Both the position numbers and the translations under genes were made by a program. Below the pieces are notes generated by a model. That model ran no database searches, was not told where the DNA came from, and saw nothing but the letters and a program-made list of their open reading frames with translations. This document shows positions 3,096-64,000 of a stretch of DNA of 64,000 nucleotides, in pieces. How positions within the stretch are numbered: position 1 is the stretch's first letter; the number at the start of each line of letters is the position of its first letter. This DNA comes from Mytilus trossulus (lineage: Eukaryota): assembly GCF_036588685.1 (NCBI RefSeq), contig NC_086376.1:67249630-67313629 (forward strand), in the 5' to 3' direction.

Positions 3096-6000
3096 ATGTT
3101 GTTATTTATTTTAGAGTTGTTTGCTTTATCTTGTTACCAGGCCTATGCAAAAGATGACACGGTTTCAATAGGAACGGTCTTGGAAAAGTTGAGTGAACTC
3201 GAAAATATAATTACCTCTCAGAAGCAGGAGTTACGACAACTTAAAGAAAATGAAAGAAATCTCTTACAAAGGATACAGAATTTGGAGCATAAACATGCCT
3301 TGAAAGAAAAGGACTTAGAAAACCAAAGTGTGTCTGTTACAGGTAATAAATTATATAAGACTGATTCGAGCAGTATAGGAGATTAATATACTCGAAATTT
3401 TTACATTGCTTCTCGATCATTTATAAAATTCATGTTTTGCGTTTAAGATTTTAAAAAGAAACTAAACATCAAATATCAAATATTATGGCATATTGTTATT
3501 CTACGTCACTTTTTCCTTCTTATAATTATTTTTCTTCCACTTTTTCTGTTCGCGCTAGTTGTCGGCTTTATATTGACAATGCTGATGCTGGAAACTTTTC
3601 TATAATGAGGACCTCTATGTGAAGTTAATCCTCTGAGTTTGGAATGGTTCAAGATGACCACCCTTTCTAAGAACTGCTTGAGAGAGTTAAACATCCATTG
3701 GTGGCCTTCGGTTGTTGTCTGCTCTAAGGTCGGGTTGTTGTCTCCTTGACACATTCCCTATTTCAATTTCCAGTTATTTTTCGTCTTTCGATTTTTGCCA
3801 TGGCGTTGTCCGTTTATCGGATTTTTAATGCCCCCATGGTATCTTCTGACTATTTTTATAAGTAAAGGCAGATTCACAATAGGAAAATCCAAGTTCTCTT
3901 TGTAAATTCATCTGAAAGATATATCGTAAATGATATGAGACCGTCATCTTACACGGTCACAAAAGAATATCAGTTATCTATAGTTGATGGTTTAATTTAA
4001 TTGGTTCTGACCATGCAGACACTCCCACCTTACATTAATATGAATAAAGAAGACGTCGATGAGACAGCAACTCCCCAACATAAACATAAAATGAGCCATC
4101 TTAGAGGGCAAATTTCAAAATTGAAATGCTATAAATAATTAGACCAGATATTTATCAAAAGTACCAGGATTATAATTTAGTACGCAAGACGCGCGTTTAG
4201 TCTACAATTAAAAGACTCATCAGTGACGCTCAAATCAATTTTTTTATAAAGCCAAACAAGGACGAAGGTGAAGAGCATTGATGATTCAAAATTCCAAAAA
4301 GTTGGGCCAAATACGGCTAAGGTAATCTATGCCTGGGATAAGAAATCCTTAGTTTTTTGAAAAATTCAAAGTTTTGTTAACATGATCAAAATATTATTGA
4401 TATTCATGTCAACACCGAAATGTTGACTACTAGGCTAGACATCTCCTTCCAAAACAAAAGAAATAAATAAAATTACAAACAAACACAGAGCAAACACCCT
4501 GATAAAGACTCTAACATAAGACTGTCTCCTTCCAAAACAAAAGAAATAAATAAAATTACAAACAAACACATAGCAAACACCCTGATAATACGGGGCGCCG
4601 AATGGGACTCTTGTGGTTTTGTACTCAAAATTCAATTTTGTACGGACAAAAGTGACTTTTGTTCAACAAAAATTAGTTCAGTTTAACAAAATTTGTATCA
4701 TACTACAAATTTGAAATTTTGTCATACAAAATTATCTATCAGCGGACAAAAGTCACTTTTGTCATGACAAAATTCATTTTTGTTACACAAACTTGACTTT
4801 TGTTACCTAATTTGAAAATTGAGCGACAAAAGTCAATTTTGTATTTAAATTAGTTTAGTTTGGTTTCTGTGAACTAATTTGCATACAAAATCGACTTTTG
4901 TTACACAAAATTGACTTTTGTTACACAAAATTGACTTTTGTTACACAAAATTGACTTTTGTTACACAAAATTGACTTTTGTTACACAAAATTGACTGTTG
5001 TGAGACAAAATTGACTTTTGTCTCAACAAAATTGACAAAATTGAATTTTGTCTCAACAAAATTGACAAAATTGAATTTTGTCTCAACAAAATTAACAAAA
5101 TTGAATTTTGTCTCAACAAAATTGAATTTTGTCTCAACAAAATTGAATTTTGTCTCAACAAAATTAACAAAATTGAGTTTTGTCTCAACAAAATTGATTT
5201 TTGTCTCACGAAAGTCAATTTTGTCTCACGAAAGTCAATTTTGTCTCATAAAAGTCAATTTTGTTGTTACAAAATTGAATTTTGTCATCACAAAAATGAA
5301 TTTTGTCGTCACAAAATTGACTTTTGTCTCAACAAAATTGACAAAATTTACTTTTGTCTCAACAAAATTGACAAAATTGACTTTTGTCTCAACAAAATTA
5401 ACAAAATTGACTTTTGTCTCAACAAAATTTACAAAATTGATTTTTGTCTCAACAGATTAACAAAATTGACTTTTGTCTCAACAAAAATGACAAAATTGAA
5501 TTTTGTCTCAACAAAAATGACAAAATTGAATTTTGTCTCACAAAAGTCAATTTTGTCTCACAAAAGTCAATTTTGTCTCACAAAAGTCAATTTTGTCTCA
5601 CAAAAGTCAATTTAGTCTCACAAAAGTTAATTTTGTTTCACAAAAGTCAATTTTGTCTCACAAAATTGAATCTTACCGTACACAATTGACTTTTGTGATT
5701 TAATTTCCATATCAGGTAACAAAAGTCAATTTTGTATGCAAATATGTTTATATTTGCATACCTTTAAGACAAAATTGACTTTTGTCATGACAAATATGAA
5801 TTTTGTCTACAAAAATGAATTTTGTCATGACAAAAATGAATTTTGTCTACACAAATGAATTTTGTCATCACAAAATTGAAGTTCTCACAAAACAAGTCTG
5901 TAGCACATAGTTTTGTAAGACAAAAATGATTTTGTTATGACAGAATTGAATTTTGTACAAAACCACAAGAGTCCAATTCGGCGCCCCGTAGATAAAGACT

Positions 6001-21455: not shown

Positions 21456-22415
21456 CTGTGAAAGTACTTTTATTTGTGGGGTACCAATTTTCGTGGTTTT
21501 TGTGGATGACTTAATCCACGAATTTAAGTGTCCAACAAAATAAAACAACCATTGTCCAAATCAAGCCATGGAAAAATAACCATGGGTAGGTTTGACTACT
21601 GATATGATCTAGAGAATATATTGAATAACGCCAAATCTGAGAATACGTTCATAGCAGTCACAGAACTACAATCGCATGCAGGATTACCCATTTAATATTT
21701 AAGTCTAAATTGTACAACTTTTGATCTTTTAATTCGCATAAAAAATATTTTTGATCGATGAAAGTCAGATTTCCGGTATTGCTATGCGAGTATGATAAAG
21801 TGTTCATTTTACTTCATCATCATTCTCGTACATATTGGTAATAATAGTTTCATGCTGGGCTTGATTTTGATAAGAATTATTTGACAACTCAAGATACGTT
21901 AATAGCATTTCAATTTGTTTATGTTACTGTTTTCTTTATGTGACATGTTTATGGCCTAATTAACACCTTTGATGGTTTATAATCTGTTGATCACTCTTTA
22001 TCATGGGTTTATAATAATGACTATATGATTTGGCACAACTTTTTGGAATTTTTGGGTCCTAAATGCTCTTCAATTTTGTATTTGTTTGGCTTTTTAACTG
22101 TTTTGATCTGAGCGTCACTGATGAGTCTTATGTAGACAAAACGCGTGTCTGGCGTATTAAATTATAATCCTGGTACCTTTGATAACTATTAATAAGTGTT
22201 ATCACTACAATTTACACGGGTCAAAGTTTACTTTGCAATTTACTTCAATCCAGACCTGAGATCCAGACTATTTGTAACCTTCGTTTCTGAAGGCTTTAAT
22301 TTTTCCATTATGTTTTATTTTAAAAACTAAAATCCACGAATTTAAAAACCCACGAACATGTAAATATTGCTCAAACCACGAAAATTGATACCCACGAATT
22401 AAAGTACTTTCACAG
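21456..22415. mobile_element. Tc1/mariner-like MITE (TA TSD), copy 1
   Basis: TA|CTGTGAAAGTACTTT...AAAGTACTTTCACAG|TA with long imperfect TIRs. The interior matches 36303-37009 in the opposite orientation. Confidence 0.85.
22018..22189 (+). mobile_element. Retrozyme-like fragment with a type I hammerhead motif (core 22112-22155, GAAA mutated to AAAA)
   Basis: GCGTCA-CTGATGA-GTCT-TATGT-AGAC-AAAA-CGCGTG-TC-TGGCGT. It is absent from the sister MITE at 36303-37009 and flanked by TAATAA (22012-22017, 22190-22195). Confidence 0.8.
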
Positions 22416-50016: not shown

Positions 50017-53000
50017 ATGGTGCTAGAAGAGATGGGAGAGTTGTTAGAAATGTTCAAGCACAGTTTCCCCCTCTCTTTCCTATTTTTTGTCCCGATTCTT
50101 GTATTGATTTCACCCGTAAACACAGCACATGAGTTCTCAGCGTTTCGGATGCAGCAGTACGATCTTCATGGCTCGCATCATGGTAAACATATACATTTAA
50201 ATTATGTGCACCCCCAAGCGTGCTTTGGGTTTGCCATCAAGCGCCAGACGTTCTTTTTATATTGTTCGATCAGGAAAATTCTCTAATGTCATTATAAAAT
50301 ATTTTGAGGTTAAGTAACGGATGTCATTTATTTTCTTTCAGCAAATACATTTGTACTTGGCTTAAATTATACAGTTAAGTCTTCTCTTTCTACGGGGGAT
50401 TTGTACTTCATGTTTAGCAGAAATGTCCCTGAAAGACTAGGGGAATAGCTCTGGTAGCATGGATGGAGGCGATTACATACAGACACATAAAAACACATCT
50501 GCTTCCATTTCTACATTTTAATCAGACAAAGCTTGACATCACAAACATAAATACAACGTCAACATACTGGCAAAAGGGGAAAAACTCTCTTTCACATAGA
50601 AACCTAATCCAACCATTCACACTGATACATAGCACCACGGTTCGAAATTGTAAACTAGACGTCCATTTTATGTATGCCCGGCTGTATCAGAAGGGGCATT
50701 AAGTATTAGGCAGCAACCAGGCATGATTTTATGTTTTGTTTTATCCTGATGACTGTGCCCTAGGCACAGAAACATGTCGATCAATAAATTACTGCAGCAG
50801 TCCCTAAAGTGTTGTCTCTACATTTTATGTATTTTATCATAAGGACCCTGCATACCAGAGGTATTCACTTTATGGACTCTACTGTACTGCAGATTCATCA
50901 GGCGTTGGCTCATTTTTTGGGGAATTTATTTTGCACAGGTTTACCAGAGGTTAATCACCAAAAATTAGCCATTGAACAATCAGATCTTACTGTTACGTTT
51001 AACATTCCATTGTGAGGAAAGAAATTTATGGTTAAATGCAAAAAAACCTAAATACGTCTTTTTAGAACAATGTTTTGTGACTTCACGAGTAGAAAAATAA
51101 CTATAATTATATAAATTGTCGCAAGTATGGAAAACTTTGATCTTTCCTTTTTAAACTACATCAAGTAAATTATAAAATTGTGAATTTGAATAGCAGGGAA
51201 GTGGACTAGAAATGGTAAATCGCAAAATTAAGCATCCCCTTAAAATAAGTTGGGTTACACAACTTTTAATAGGGAGCTTGAAAAAAATGTTGTACTGTTA
51301 TGAATTTTAATCTATAACTATTGTTATGTCCCTTTTATTAATTTTGCAGGATGTCAAGCAGCACAGGTAAACATGGAAGCCAGACCAATTGATGCTAAAA
51401 TGATCACAAGAAGATGCATTGTTACAAAAATGAAAGAGTTCACTATGGCCAAGTATCGTGACTTGATTCAGGAAAATGCTGGTGCATTACTTATCATACT
51501 GCCAAGAAATCTCACATCACTATCAGATGATGACAGACAGGTAACTAGCATTTAATTAACCCACTAACCTAAAGTCTAAAAACATATTAATTAGGATCTT
51601 CAAATGGCAAAGTAGGAGAAATGAGAAGTGTTTCTGTTTGTTTAACCTTTTCAGACCACGATTGACACTTCAGACAGCTGATGATGAGTCTTGGTTTACC
51701 TGGATTGAAATACCTCTTTTATATTTCCCGCTGAAAAACATGGCAAACACTATTGTTCTTTTTTTGTTGAATATCTGGATGAAAGTGTAAACATGGAGCT
51801 TTCCTCTTGTGGAAAACTGTCAAAATCAGATGAAATTTATGGATTTTACTTCAATTTGATATGAGGGAACAATTTTTTTGAAGAATTGAAGCCAGACTAG
51901 TATCGACTAGTATACTTGTTTGACAAAAATGCTGTTTGACAAAAATGCTGTTTTATTTACTAAACATTTGGAATGGACATCATTTGGTGACGAATTTTGG
52001 TCAACCTTGCTAAAAAAAAAATTTGCTGTTTAGGGATAGAAAATTACCGTTTAGGTCAAAAAGTTGGAATTTTAGAAATTTCTAATGTTTCAATGCCGAA
52101 AATATGCAAATTTTGATTTTTTTATGACAAAATTAACTTGAACAAAAAAACTGTCTATTGAATAAAACAAAAACATAAATCAAAGACACCTTTTTATTGA
52201 TATAAAAATGAAAATTTCTCACTTGTGTCACAATAGATAGGGAAGCAATCATCACAGAGTAGATTCTGTCGAGGCAGGTATCATTGAAAGGGTTAAGTCA
52301 ATGTTGGCTGTTTCAAAATTATGATACTATACCAGTTTTCGTCACATTTACATTCTGAAGAATAAAAACACTGCTCACCCTTCAACCTAAATTAATTTGT
52401 TCAAAAGGATTTATGTTGGTTAGATATACATCACAACAAAACACAGGTTGTGTAAATACATGTGGCCATTGCTTTATGAATTCAATCATGCTAAAACTAA
52501 ATGAATACACTAAAGTACACAAATAAATGCTTAAAATAGATTTAAACTTTATCCAGATAATCCAGAGATCTTTTATGTGTAAATTCATTACTCAATTTCT
52601 TGTTGATATTTGTAATTCTAGCACTTACAGACAGTAGAGAAAGATTTAGCAGAGGAAGGGAGCGTTAGTATTCCTGTTTACTTTGCTGAAGAAACAGATG
52701 AGTTACTACAGGTTTATGATGCTATACAGCTTGGTAATACTGGAGACCAAGCAGCATCAGCTCTGGAAGGTAAAAACCTCAGTGTTCTACTATGTATCAT
52801 GTTCTGTAAATTCAGAAATAATTGTTTGAATTTGTTATTGCGATTTTGTCATTTTGGACTATAATGTGATTTTAATTAACTTTTTACCTGAAATATTGCT
52901 CAGGTAACTTTGTTGTTTGAACACCATTTTAAATGTTTATGGAAGTATTACAATAATCAAAGTAGTATCAGAAATGGACCTAAAATTAAAAACAATCACA

Positions 53001-58269: not shown

Positions 58270-61200
58270 AGGAGTAGGGGCTATAACAGCCTAAAATGGC
58301 CCCAGATTTTCAAAAAAATTAAAAGTTATATTTTGCCGATTTTTTGCGATAATTTACTAAAACATGATTCATAGAGTTGAGAAGTGTTGTTGTAATAAAA
58401 AAAAAACATGTTGATGACGTCATAATGGTGGGTGTTAATGACGTCAAATTATAGAAATGTACAAAAAATAACAAAAATACTATGTTCTTTCTCTATTTTG
58501 ACCAACGCACCATGCTTGCACCAAAGAAAAAAATTAATATGTTGTTAAGCATATACTTTTTAAACATCCCCTAAACATTCTTTTTGGTGCAAGCTTGGTG
58601 CGATACTTTATTTTAACTTTTTCATTTTCAAGCAGTGCCATACTAGCCTAGGATTGTGGCTTTATAGTGAGATTCTTCTACCAAAACCCGATTTGTGCAT
58701 TCCTATTTCTTGAATATTCTTAACTTTTAATTACCAAACAATAAAAACATGTCTAGAAACATTAAGAATGTATTCAAATTATTTATTGAGACTTAGTACG
58801 TAAAAAAAATCTTACTGAAAAACAACGAATTTGTACGGTGACTTCTAGATAGTAGACTGCGATAACGGATAAGCCCGGGTTAAAAAAAAAGCCAATTTTG
58901 CCAAAAATAACTTTGCTTATCTTATTGGGTTATAGTGCCTCAATCTTGATAATAATTTGTAGTAGATCGTTGTACTAAGATCTATAATGGTACAAAATAC
59001 AGTCATTCAAGTCTAGAGGTTTCGGAACTCCGGTTTAAACTTTCCGCACTTGTGGTTCGATCATGATTATCATGATTATGCGGATCTGCAAAGTGGTGAC
59101 ATAAATACTGTAGCAACAAATCTGAATAATCGGTATGATTACGTTTATTGTAAGCAGAAAGATGAAGAATATGGTGCTGTTTGACTTAATTGGAGGTAAA
59201 TATGAGAAATGTAAAAAAAAAAAAATGTTAGAAATAGTTAAAGAATTGAAGTTAGAATCGATCAATGAAGCGAACATGAGTTTAAAACAAAATGAACACA
59301 ACGCTATATTTCTTTTTACTTTCCAGTGAGAAATTTCATTCAAAAGTATTTATATCGATCTTTACAAAATCAAAGCGAAAGAAACGGGCAAATAAAGTAC
59401 TAAGAAAAACAGGCTGGGGAAAAAAAAAGAAAACTCGTCGGTCTCTGTGTGTTTGTAGTAACAGACCTAGGTTTTTGCAATAAATGTTAAATCATATAAT
59501 GTTTTAGCAAATATAATTCTAAAGAAGTCTATAAAAGAAATCAGACATGTAGTGTACACAGTATTAATAAAAACAAGTTTACGCTTGCAGACGTCAAGCT
59601 TATAACGCGAAAGATTTCCACCAGTTTTAAATAGTAATATTTACGGTATTACATTGTGTCAGTTTTCATAGCTGCGATCGTTAGATCGTGGCGTTTGGAG
59701 AATGCCGTTTGAGATAGAACCTCACACATACCGAAATATTTTCTTTTTTGTTTTTTTCTTTCAAAAGAAACGGAGTTGTATGATTTATGTTACATGACAA
59801 CATTAAATAATGTTTTTTAACGAACTCAATTATTTTCACTTTGTTGATTGAACTCTTTATAGACTATCTGTAATAAAATCCGATGGAGTCATACTCGGGT
59901 ATCAGAGCGAAAATTAACAGCTTCTTTAAATGAGATTGTTTGTATACTACAATAAAAAAAAAACTATATTCTGTTTCAGACTCTTTTTTATGAAGAAGAT
60001 AGAAGAAACATATTAATCTACCAATATTAATAGACAAGGTATGTGTGATAATACGCCTATATCTAAAGTAATCATTATACTGCAATACGAAGATTCATTA
60101 TACCACATCTATTCTTTGTGCATGCTTTAAACAGTGTACATCAGAGCATACTAGTTGCACATACAATGGTGCATCTCAAAGGATATGACAATTTACAGCG
60201 ATTCGCATACGTCTACTAGTATATAAATAATTATAACTGTTTATGGTTCTCTTTTCGTTTTATTTTTTTCAAATCGCATTCTCTATTAAAAAAAAAAACA
60301 GATTTGAGCTCTACGAGTAGTTGAAGCAGATAAATCACAGAATAAAATATAAAATAAAATAGAATAGATATGATTAAATACGAATACTAACATTCACTTT
60401 TTCTTTTGTTATTCAAATGTAACAATTTGTAATTCATTGTCTCTTTTAGTTGTAGTGTGTTGTTAGTTTGCTGTCTACTCCATGATTTCTTCATATTTGA
60501 ACGGGTTTAATTTTTAGCTGAATTTAAAACAGTACACGCACAGTTTCAAAATAGAAAAAAATATTAATGATTTACTTGTAATTGAAATTGAATTTCTTTG
60601 TTAATACCAATAATATTCTATTTCATCTTTCAGGATATGTCTCAAGTAGCACGATTTACGTGTGTTCTCTGTACTAAGAGGACAAAAAATCATGATAGAC
60701 GGTTTCTTGGTGGAGAAAGTAATAAAGGACTACGCAAATACTTGTACAAATATTTTTTCCTTAATGTTGATAGTTGTGATGTTATATGTGGAGCATGTAG
60801 ACGTAATTATTACAGACAATATGATGACAAGTCAATTACCAATGCTAAACCAGACAAACAGGTACTACCAGCAGCAAGCACATCACAACAGACACTTGTT
60901 TCGCCTAAAACTATAACGTTGTCGCTGTCTTCAATAGGTGGAAGCCACTCAACCTGCTTCGTTTGCAGGAAACGAGGTCCTAAACTAATTGTTGTTTCTT
61001 CCTCAACAAGGCTAACTACATTTGTACAAAATAATATTATAATACCTGCAGGAGCGAGATGTTGCCCTGGTCATATTTCTGATGAGAATTTCAGTGAACA
61101 AGCCATTGAATGTTTATCTGACTTAAGAAAAACAACAGATTTTAACCGAAGTGATATTTTGGACCTTCTTCAAAAAATAAGAATGCTACTCCTAAAAAAT

Positions 61201-64000
61201 GAAGACAAAAGATTGAATTTTGATAAAGACTCCACATTAAGTGATGCAGAGTATATCAGTTTAACAGGCATTGATAAAACATCATTCAGTGATTTAGCAT
61301 CACATCTCGTCTCAATTAGAGATACGAAGGTGCGTAGTTCAAGGACATGCTTAGGCATTTTTTTGACAAAAATGCGGTCAGGTATGTCCAACAAACTTAT
61401 GGCAACTATTTTTAACGTAGGAAAAGATTCGATCCGCCGAGCAGTTACAACAGTCAGAAAAAATCTTATGCAGACATTCGTACCAAAGCACTTAGGATTC
61501 AACCATATTTCTAGAGAGAACTTAATTGAAAACCATACTAGACCTCTTGCCCAGACATTATTTGGCAATGAATTCAATCCTGCAATTCTTGTAATTGACG
61601 GAACATACATATATATCCAGAAAAGCGGTCAATTTCAGTTTCAACGCCGTACATTTAGCATGCATAAGCATCGGCCTCTTGTCAAACCCATGGTTTTCGT
61701 AACCACTACAGGTTATTTTGTCAGCGTTATGGGTCCATACTTGGCAGATAGTAAAAATAATGACGCCAATATACTTAAGCATATAATTGCCTCAGACAAT
61801 GAGCAGATTAAAAGTTGGTTGCAGAAAGATGATGTTTTCATTGTTGACCGTGGATTTCGGGACTCAATTGATCTGCTTGAGGAATTAGGAATACAAACAG
61901 AAATGCCTTCGTTCTTAAAGAAAGGCCAGGCACAGTTTACCACAGAAGAAAGCAATACTTCAAGATTAATAACAAAGATTCGCTGGGTAGTTGAATCCGC
62001 AAATGGCAGAATTAAGACATGGGTGTTCTTCAACCATGTGATGCCTAACTCACAAATACCGTATATTGGAGATTACCTACGTATTGTATGCTCAATATGC
62101 AACAAGTATTTCAAACCACTTAGTTCTGGTGATCCAGAGGAAGACCAACTACTTGGATGTAAAATGATTTATCTTTCTAAGCAAAATAATCTCCTTAAAG
62201 AAAAAATTGAGTCGGAAAATCTTGACCGCATTAGATCTAATTCTACTACTTGGTGTAAGATTGATGCTGCGTCTATTGAATTTCCTTCTATTACTGAAGA
62301 AGATCTCAGAAACCTTACCTTAGGCGTTTACCAGATAAAATTGGCTAAATCATACGTAGCTGAACATGTTACTGAAAACAGTGACTTTGAGGTACTAGTA
62401 CATAAACAGGAAAACAATTTGATATGTGCAAAAATCCAAAGTAGACATGTTTCATCTAAAGCTCATTTGTTATGGATTCAATACGATGAAGTGACTGTTC
62501 TTGGCTGGTTCTGTAAATGTCGTGCTGGAGCAAGAGTAGTTGGTATGTGTACACACGTTTCGGCAGTTATCTGGTATTTAGGGTATGCTCGCTGTTTGGA
62601 CATACCCTATTGTTCTGGTGACGATTGGACAAAATATCTCATAGATGCACGTAATATGCCAGAACCCGAAATTATTGATGAAAGTGATGAAAGTGACTGC
62701 GTTGAAGAATGATTGTGTAGCTCATGTCAACTTTTATGTTATGTGCTAAAATATTTTTATATCATGATGTTAGCAATCTATTATATTAAATCTTTCTTTG
62801 TTGAGAGATATGACAACAAAAAGGTAACACATGTTCAACCCCTTTCACGATTTCAAGAGTATGATATCTTACATAGAAGAAATCTTCAATAAATATGTTG
62901 AATTGGACCTTATACTAGTGCATTTTATTCGTCTTTGAGTTTGACTGTTCATTTGGTATCTATTGTCCCGCTTTTTTTTAACATCTTGGTATTGTAATTA
63001 AAGTTTTTAATGTTATATTCATATTTAAAAAAATAATGTATATATATGTAGTATGTCTGTATTACTGAAAACCATCTGTTCATTTACATAACTTAGAATT
63101 TAATCACTTTTAAAGGGTTTCATTCCATAAAAAGTTCTATTGAATAAATAAATAGTACTTGTTAAATAGTGGTTTACACAGACGTTCTTTTCACCACAAC
63201 AAACATAAGTTACAGCAACCATCAGTAATTGTGGTGGGCATTTGAGGCATTTTCGCTCCTTCAAATTACAATTTTAACATATTGATGTTGTTGATAGGTA
63301 GCGGTTACTGTGGAAATACAAAATGCTGTGTTTTAACTCTGTTGAACAGTTTCTAATTAAACTATTTGCAGTTGTTCTTGTTCAAAATGACATATGCATA
63401 CACACAGCCGGACACACAGAAAAAAATACAGATATACTAGATGAAATAATATAAACATATTCTACAAATTCTTAACGTTTCAAGACCATTGGTTAATTTG
63501 TGGTTAAATATACATGAACTAATGTCATTTTCAAGAAGCATCGATCAAACTGTCTGCTATTTCAGAAACAACAATTAAAAAAAGACTTTTGATTTTTTAA
63601 GATGAAACAAAATTTCCACACACGGTAAAAAAAGGGTAAGATTATGTATCATCATATTTTTGAAACCATGGTAACATATGCTATGGTAAATACAAATAAT
63701 CGAGACCACAAAAGAGAAAGTATCTAACTATTTATTCTTATAACGTCTTTTTGTGTGTTTTGTATATAATAAGGTATCTTTGTTTTGAATTTTTAACTCA
63801 AATACGTGCAATAATAACAACACTAGTTTCAAAATTGATTAAAAATTCGTTTTTGGGATTAATAAAGGGGTTCACTTTGATGACGTCATACACAGTGATT
63901 TCAAGTAATATATACAAAATATATATATTTTTGGAAAGCAGACACCTATAGGATATTTTGAGAAAAAAATTGTCTACTTTTGAAGTGGGGCCGATTTTGA
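58270..64000 (+). mobile_element. Autonomous-looking TTAA-target DNA transposon with Kolobok-type termini in NCLN intron 10; the right end lies just outside the window
   Basis: TTAA at 58266-58269 is followed by AGGAGTAGG...AAAATGGCCCCAGATTTTCAAAA. The window ends TTTTGAAGTGGGGCCGATTTTGA, resembling the reverse complement of the inner left end. TTGATGACGTCATA occurs near both ends (58411, 63877). The element encloses the transposase ORF. Confidence 0.7.
60637..62712 (+). CDS. DDE transposase (DDE_Tnp_4 / IS5-PIF-Harbinger-like core) with N-terminal Cys/His clusters and a C-terminal SWIM-type zinc finger, 691 aa from the first ATG
   Basis: Uninterrupted ORF 60598-62712. The first ATG at 60637 follows a splice-acceptor-like TTTCATCTTTCAG. 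Catalytic-type motifs ILVIDGTYIYIQK, NNDA, VFIVDRGF, RWVVESANGRIK; SWIM-like WFCKCRAGARVVGMCTH; N-terminal CVLC..CGAC and HSTCFVC..CCPGH. Confidence 0.9.
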   Translation: MSQVARFTCVLCTKRTKNHDRRFLGGESNKGLRKYLYKYFFLNVDSCDVICGACRRNYYRQYDDKSITNAKPDKQVLPAASTSQQTLVSPKTITLSLSSIGGSHSTCFVCRKRGPKLIVVSSSTRLTTFVQNNIIIPAGARCCPGHISDENFSEQAIECLSDLRKTTDFNRSDILDLLQKIRMLLLKNEDKRLNFDKDSTLSDAEYISLTGIDKTSFSDLASHLVSIRDTKVRSSRTCLGIFLTKMRSGMSNKLMATIFNVGKDSIRRAVTTVRKNLMQTFVPKHLGFNHISRENLIENHTRPLAQTLFGNEFNPAILVIDGTYIYIQKSGQFQFQRRTFSMHKHRPLVKPMVFVTTTGYFVSVMGPYLADSKNNDANILKHIIASDNEQIKSWLQKDDVFIVDRGFRDSIDLLEELGIQTEMPSFLKKGQAQFTTEESNTSRLITKIRWVVESANGRIKTWVFFNHVMPNSQIPYIGDYLRIVCSICNKYFKPLSSGDPEEDQLLGCKMIYLSKQNNLLKEKIESENLDRIRSNSTTWCKIDAASIEFPSITEEDLRNLTLGVYQIKLAKSYVAEHVTENSDFEVLVHKQENNLICAKIQSRHVSSKAHLLWIQYDEVTVLGWFCKCRAGARVVGMCTHVSAVIWYLGYARCLDIPYCSGDDWTKYLIDARNMPEPEIIDESDESDCVEE

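What the first reader, a model, noticed from the sequence alone, without database searches (positions are those of the whole stretch)
50741..50790. Intact-core minimal hammerhead ribozyme in the sense strand of nicalin intron 1
Seen: CUGAUGA, one extra C, a perfect 6-bp stem II, GAAA, palindromic CAUG, UC, a short stem I, then AAUAAA. It is transcribed as part of NCLN pre-mRNA, and its sequence differs from the two retrozyme copies elsewhere in the window. Known: minimal type I hammerheads with palindromic stem III mark Penelope-like elements and retrozymes and usually cleave as dimers, and an extra base after A9 occurs in some natural hammerheads. Inference: a second ribozyme-bearing retroelement family, or a co-opted intronic cleavage/polyadenylation signal in a housekeeping gene. 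Predicted cut is after 50778.
Basis: partly seen in the sequence, partly recalled or inferred. Interest (0 to 1): 0.7.

Follow-up and report, generated by a model that had tools for sequence, protein, structure and literature searches.

The report
Penelope-type retroelement stump with minimal hammerhead
The hammerhead-ribozyme motif in the first intron of the nicalin gene is real, but it is the cut-short, aged end of a dispersed non-coding repeat likely derived from Penelope-type jumping genes; the intron is spliced normally and one animal carries an allele that deletes the motif, so it is likely a passenger and not a gene-control switch.

Summary
The motif is as described (core 50746-50778, AAUAAA 50783-50788) and lies in NCLN intron 1 (50183-51349), which 3 of 3 RNA runs splice normally. 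It is part of a ~210-nt, 5'-truncated end (50722-~50931) of a repeat family with 42 exact-core copies in this genome, likely a Mytilus mussel's. The family has a ~1.07-kb non-coding unit, partial tandems, inverted truncated copies and two fixed 3' ends, the layout of Penelope-like elements (PLEs). Five sister families keep the fold with paired changes; one keeps the start of a Neptune-type ORF. The extra base is a published feature of PLE minimal hammerheads. The NCLN copy is 8% diverged, alone has U-A where 37 of 42 have G-C, has no dimer partner nearby, shows no significant extra conservation, and is deleted in one allele of another animal. AAUAAA came with the element (112 of 122 hammerhead contexts). 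Co-option is not supported; cleavage is untested; no autonomous parent was found. The scan has noted similar intronic PLE stumps in shark, skate and octopus, but not this sequence.

The parts
50722..50931 (+). 5'-truncated 3' end (pseudo-LTR piece) of a non-coding PLE-type repeat; right edge uncertain between 50916 and 50931; no target-site duplication evident
50743..50781 (+). minimal type I hammerhead motif: stem I 50743-45/50779-81, core, stem II, palindromic CAUG; predicted cut after 50778
50753..50753 (+). extra base between A9 and 10.1 (C here; C 69, A 41, T 12, G 0 of 122 related contexts)
   Evidence: PMC4209133
50754..50768 (+). stem II; closing pair U-A (50754/50768), unique to this copy; G-C in 37 of 42 copies
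50783..50788 (+). AAUAAA carried by the element; the only one in the sense strand of intron 1
50809..50822 (+). GU-rich motif and the family's short 3' end point; this copy lacks 12 nt here
50823..50931 (+). ~105-nt tail between the family's short and long 3' ends
50017..50182 (+). NCLN (nicalin) first coding exon
50183..51349 (+). NCLN intron 1, GT..AG
51350..51540 (+). NCLN exon 2

Best explanation
This is a solitary, aged, 5'-truncated end of a dispersed non-coding repeat family that is likely a non-autonomous derivative of Neptune-type Penelope-like retrotransposons; its hammerhead motif and AAUAAA came with the insertion, and the copy is likely an inert passenger in an intron that is spliced normally. 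Inferred mechanism: an autonomous PLE reverse transcriptase/endonuclease copied the family's tandem RNA from the outer of two internal start sites, stopped after about 210 nt and inserted the product sense to NCLN. In tandem copies the hammerheads are predicted to pair through the CAUG palindrome and cut between units; the lone NCLN copy has no such partner and has lost the G-C closing pair, so it is predicted to cut little or not at all.
For: Shown: 47 matches among 40 scored of 157 candidates, starting at 50721-50744. Relatives continue upstream into shared element sequence of 32 to >1000 nt, whereas the window switches to unique flank. Unit ~1.07 kb in partial tandems with inverted truncated copies. 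Two sharp 3' ends ~105 nt apart: 36 long, 23 short, 2 other of 61. No ORF of 150 aa or more inside the unit. Six stem-II families keep the fold: 7 of 9 pairs change on both sides, 0 of 500 shuffles reach the score. A sister family's 125-codon ORF matches P0003 (E 4.6e-6) and P0004 (E 1.6e-4), which in turn match the N-terminus and RT motif of this genome's 911-aa RT plus GIY-YIG ORF; P0008, of the same cluster as P0003, hits both that sister family and 911-959-aa ORFs, whose pLTRs carry like hammerheads. NCLN copy: 16 of 195 substitutions, 2 of 39 in the motif against 14 of 156 outside; an intact core is expected 39% of the time at this divergence. U-A is unique. A locus-specific contig of DNA run X4 skips 50746-50791 (depth 8.5, beside an intact allele at 10.5). 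Normal splicing in 3 of 3 RNA runs. Literature: a single PLE minimal hammerhead showed no cleavage (PMC4209133); the Poseidon one needed its protein (PMC11167929, parts 1-2 of 4 read).
Against: No autonomous parent with this pLTR was found in the assembly, and no protein remnant was detected in this family's own unit, so the Neptune link is indirect, through a sister family and a two-step protein match; no tree was built. The insertion is present at this locus in 4 of 4 DNA runs (two organism labels and a mollusc metagenome) with no empty-site joint, and X1 shares the U-A pair, which fits age but also retention. The double change keeps stem II paired. The tail (~105 nt) is longer than the 30-40 nt in the papers read. 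Cleavage was not tested.
Confidence: 0.85

Rival explanations
1. The copy has been co-opted: self-cleavage or the AAUAAA ends some NCLN transcripts in intron 1 and tunes the gene, as proposed for conserved intronic hammerheads of amniotes.
For: Sense orientation, intact core boxes, a stem II kept paired by two changes; the only AAUAAA in the sense strand of intron 1; present in 4 of 4 DNA runs.
Against: No significant excess conservation; a deletion allele removes core, cut site and AAUAAA; a second locus-specific contig in X8 skips 50760-50795 (depth 3.7, RNA guessed, may be an artefact); spliced mRNA in 3 of 3 RNA runs; each half of the double change also occurs alone in other copies (1 and 2 of 29); the copy has lost 12 nt of the GU-rich stretch.
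Confidence: 0.05
2. The insertion was mildly harmful when young and the locus records selection to disarm it: the closing-pair change and the deletions remove a sense-strand cutter and poly(A) signal from a housekeeping gene.
For: The two motif changes hit the conserved G10.1-C11.1 pair (PMC4209133); two different deletions of the motif are seen at this locus; a preprint reports retrozymes depleted from introns in Xenopus (10.64898/2026.07.22.740005, abstract and passages).
Against: The X4 deletion runs between two CTG repeats around a hairpin, and hairpin deletions occur in other copies too (for example the inverted copy in L004); both changed sites are CG positions that also vary elsewhere; no allele frequencies are in hand.
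Confidence: 0.08
3. The motif is a chance arrangement in intronic DNA.
For: The loose core pattern occurs at chance frequency; no Rfam hit.
Against: 42 exact copies against 0 control, 106 against 3 for the wider pattern, covariation across families.
Confidence: 0.01

Closest known systems
Minimal hammerheads (min-HHR) in pLTRs of metazoan Penelope-like elements (Cervera and de la Pena 2014, PMC4209133; parts 1-2 of 4 read, supplements not seen)
   Same: Type I, no real stem III, palindromic 15.2-16.2, long stem II, short stem I, extra base between 9 and 10.1, G10.1-C11.1 in the family, mostly single dispersed truncated copies, some pairs on opposite strands.
   Different: This copy has U-A at 10.1-11.1; stem II is 6 bp and stem I 3 bp; the carrier unit is non-coding; an AAUAAA follows the cut site in most related copies, which the parts read do not mention.
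EN+ PLE insertion layout, Neptune type (Craig et al. 2021, PMC8557442, passages; Frangieh et al. 2024, PMC11167929, parts 1-2 of 4)
   Same: 5' truncation, partial tandems, inverted truncated copies, two 3' ends bounding a tail, AT-rich flanks.
   Different: No RT or GIY-YIG ORF in the unit; tail about 105 nt instead of 30-40 nt (about 94 nt between two loci of this genome's 929-aa family); parent not found.
Mytilus galloprovincialis non-LTR retrozyme (Cervera and de la Pena 2020, PMC7229834, passages and section 14)
   Same: Non-coding tandem unit with one type I hammerhead per unit, in a mussel genome.
   Different: Unit ~1.07 kb instead of 350-390 nt; tens instead of ~5000 copies; different stem II, extra base, CAUG instead of CGCG palindrome; circular RNA not tested.
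Conserved intronic hammerheads of amniotes (RECK, CTCL, DTNB; as reviewed in PMC6155905, passages)
   Same: Type I hammerhead in the sense strand of an intron.
   Different: Those are conserved across birds and mammals and canonical in shape; this one is minimal, is part of a multi-copy repeat, and has a deletion allele.

Membership tests
PLE minimal hammerhead | Intact core boxes CUGANGA, GAAA, UH | tested here: met
PLE minimal hammerhead | Extra base between 9 and 10.1 | tested here: met
PLE minimal hammerhead | Palindromic 15.2-16.2 without a stable stem III | tested here: met
   CAUG 50773-50776, invariant in 11 of 11 aligned
PLE minimal hammerhead | G10.1-C11.1 closing pair | tested here: not met
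   U-A in this copy; met by the family, 37 of 42, so read as decay of a member
PLE minimal hammerhead | Stem covariation among families | tested here: met
   7 of 9 pairs change on both sides, 11 hand-picked sequences
PLE minimal hammerhead | Self-cleavage as a dimer or with protein help | not testable with these tools
   needs a bench assay
Penelope-like element (insertion layout) | 5' truncation, partial tandems, inverted truncated copy | tested here: met
Penelope-like element (insertion layout) | Two 3' ends bounding a tail | tested here: met
   36 long, 23 short, 2 other of 61; tail longer than published
Autonomous PLE | RT plus GIY-YIG ORF | tested here: not met
   none in the unit or beside fetched copies
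Non-autonomous Neptune derivative | Sequence descent from a Neptune-type element | tested here: inconclusive
   shown for a sister family by a two-step protein match; this family links to it by 72-82% identical blocks; no parent found, no tree
Non-LTR retrozyme | Tandem unit of 170-400 nt | tested here: not met
   unit 1072-1078 nt
Non-LTR retrozyme | Unit-length circular RNA | not tested
   only contigs were available, and both read-laying runs went to the NCLN locus
Co-opted intronic ribozyme | Conservation above neutral, fixed intact across lineages | tested here: not met
   2 of 39 against 14 of 156 changes; deletion allele in X4

The most novel reading that the evidence does not exclude
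The six sister families form an undescribed group of long (0.8-1.1 kb) non-coding Neptune-derived elements in which the hammerhead cut site sits 3-10 nt before a selected AAUAAA and a GU-rich stretch, so that cutting toggles the unit RNA between a polyadenylated form and a tail-less, circularisable form; the NCLN allele series (U-A copy, deletion alleles) would be a natural test of what such a module does to a host pre-mRNA.
Probability: 0.2. Interest if true: 0.55.

Novelty: new member of a known kind. Interest (0 to 1): 0.22.

Why it matters
As a single locus it matters little: PLE ends with minimal hammerheads are common in animal introns. The family group is of some use to specialists: low-copy, recently active non-coding PLE derivatives with two sharp 3' ends and a hammerhead-AAUAAA module give clean substrates to ask what PLE hammerheads do, which is still open (PMC8557442, PMC11167929). 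Segregating intact and deleted alleles in a housekeeping intron allow a direct test of whether such a motif affects a host gene.

Tried and rejected
Rfam scan: no hit at the finding. Search for an autonomous parent, all negative: 20 regions around hammerhead copies or diverged relatives; 40 of 217 tail-motif sites; 30 loci plus 20 longer regions from the 73 unit-start sites; 30 loci plus 16 regions from 150 GIY-YIG hits; a 64-aa frame of the unit in the genome and among longer proteins; 11 regions of candidate ORFs. A resemblance of the unit's frames to a PLE linker and GIY-YIG, recalled from memory, was not supported by tblastn and is dropped. The upstream repeat at 50434-50635 was checked as a possible 5' part of the insertion and is unrelated. 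Folding predicts that the extra C pairs with G12 (P 0.99), but equally in a typical family copy, so it does not single out this copy. RNA contigs show no poly(A) loose end near the AAUAAA, but contigs cannot show ends. Two inversion-type joints in X1 at 85% likeness were not listed at 97% and are taken as other copies. The structure atlas and Lunse et al. 2017 could not be consulted. Searches for a printed account of the AAUAAA link found 0 papers and 3 papers, of which the two examined by passages did not describe it; subscription journals, Repbase and supplements were not seen.

Full report
Observation. It lies in the sense strand of intron 1 (50183-51349) of nicalin: the exons join in frame, exon 2 matches human nicalin and contigs of 3 of 3 RNA runs join 50182 to 51350. 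The loose core pattern is at chance level in the window and Rfam has no hit here, so the case rests on the genome. The host is likely a Mytilus mussel (named protein; mollusc runs).

What it belongs to. Bases 50722 to about 50931 match many genomic places at 72-94% identity (47 matches, 40 of 157 candidates scored). Other copies continue upstream into shared sequence for 32 to more than 1000 nt, while the window switches to unique flank. The full unit is 1072-1078 nt, occurs as partial tandems and as inverted, 5'-truncated pairs, and holds no ORF of 150 aa or more. The 3' ends fall at two points about 105 nt apart: 36 long, 23 short and 2 other of 61 distinct ends (the sample favours long ends because the first query included the tail). 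The window copy is a long-end copy truncated 24 nt before the core, without an evident target-site duplication.

The hammerhead at family level. The exact motif has 42 copies against 0 for the control; a wider pattern has 106 against 3. At least six stem-II families share core, extra base, CAUG, AAUAAA, a GU-rich stretch and, where seen, a tail motif (217 sites against 1). On 11 hand-picked sequences 7 of 9 pairs change on both sides and 0 of 500 shuffles reach the covariation score. Among 122 distinct contexts in fetched loci the extra base is C, A or T, never G; the closing pair is G-C in 101; AAUAAA follows 3-10 nt after the cut in 112, against about 3% expected (these copies are related, so the independent count is nearer six). 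Cervera and de la Pena (PMC4209133, parts 1-2 of 4) list the extra base, the G10.1-C11.1 pair and the palindrome as recurring features of PLE minimal hammerheads. The A-rich stretch may also be kept because it can extend stem I, and the GU-rich stretch lies just before the short 3' end, so a poly(A) role is an inference.

Origin. A sister family keeps a 125-codon frame. Its first 75-90 residues match unnamed proteins P0003 and P0004, which match the N-terminus and the RT motif of a 911-aa RT plus GIY-YIG ORF of this genome. P0008, of the same cluster as P0003, hits both the sister family (37-42%) and ORFs of 911-959 aa (26-34%). Those ORFs have the cysteine linker that marks Neptune or Nematis (PMC8557442) and similar hammerheads in their pLTRs. 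The finding's own family links to the sister by 72-82% identical blocks but gave no protein match, and no autonomous element with its pLTR was found. The Neptune assignment is therefore indirect.

The NCLN copy. It differs from the majority letter of 29 copies at 16 of 195 sites plus three indels, among the most diverged of those fetched. Two of 39 changes fall in the motif and 14 of 156 outside; an intact core is expected 39% of the time, and 24 of 29 other copies also have one. The two changes turn G-C into U-A; this is unique in the assembly, but each half occurs alone in other copies. That U-A lowers the rate is recalled, not shown here. No second intact hammerhead lies downstream in the window on this strand. 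A single PLE minimal hammerhead did not cleave in vitro (PMC4209133), and the Poseidon one needed its protein (PMC11167929). Contigs bridge flank and element in 4 of 4 DNA runs with no empty-site joint, so the insertion is old; X1 shares the U-A pair. X4 carries, beside an intact allele, one that skips 50746-50791 between two CTG repeats and so lacks core, cut site and AAUAAA. A low-depth X8 contig skips 50760-50795, possibly an artefact.

Mechanism. Shown: repeat membership, layout, covariation, splicing, deletion allele. Inferred: copying by a PLE enzyme in trans from the outer start site, early truncation, dimer-dependent cleavage in tandem copies, inactivity of the lone copy (confidence 0.85). 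Rivals are host disarming (0.08), co-option (0.05) and chance (0.01).

Novelty. A new member of a known kind. No look-alike was in the scan's index; similar intronic PLE stumps were noted in shark, skate and octopus. Two literature searches found no account of the hammerhead-AAUAAA pairing in PLEs, but Lunse et al. 2017, Repbase and the supplements of the papers read, which may list mollusc families, were not seen. Interest 0.22.

Noticed in passing
window 50434-50635: A ~200-nt piece of an unrelated repeat (40 matches among 40 scored of 169 candidates, 85-88% identity); elsewhere it often occurs as direct pairs about 1.39 kb apart, like the solo terminal repeat of a small LTR-type element.
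   Followed up: partly
window about 51100-51260: Another multi-copy repeat in intron 1, seen as high contig depth.
   Followed up: no
window 60592-62712 (+): Open frame of 706 codons with a DDE_Tnp_4 transposase domain (E 4e-17), downstream of the NCLN exons identified here.
   Followed up: partly
window 4182-4229 (-) and 22109-22147 (+): Two retrozyme-type hammerheads, both with a changed GAAA box, below Rfam's gathering scores.
   Followed up: partly
G000:C13:22538718-22544948: An ~885-nt sister family forms an array of four units facing four inverted units; similar arrays lie on C8 and C11.
   Followed up: partly
L074-L119, L301-L310: Autonomous GIY-YIG PLEs of this genome carry hammerhead-like motifs with variant cores such as UUGAUAA, UUGAAAA, CCGAUGA and CCGAAGA.
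   Followed up: no
P0001: A public Mytilus edulis gene model named PSAP matches 54% of a sister family's ORF at 91% identity, likely a repeat taken into the model.
   Followed up: no
L123, L126-L128, L135, L150, L154: A ~1.7-kb repeat with 86-nt inner inverted repeats carries a piece resembling the shared tail but no hammerhead just before it.
   Followed up: no
window 4600-5850: AT-rich palindromic repeats that give weak microRNA-model hits.
   Followed up: no
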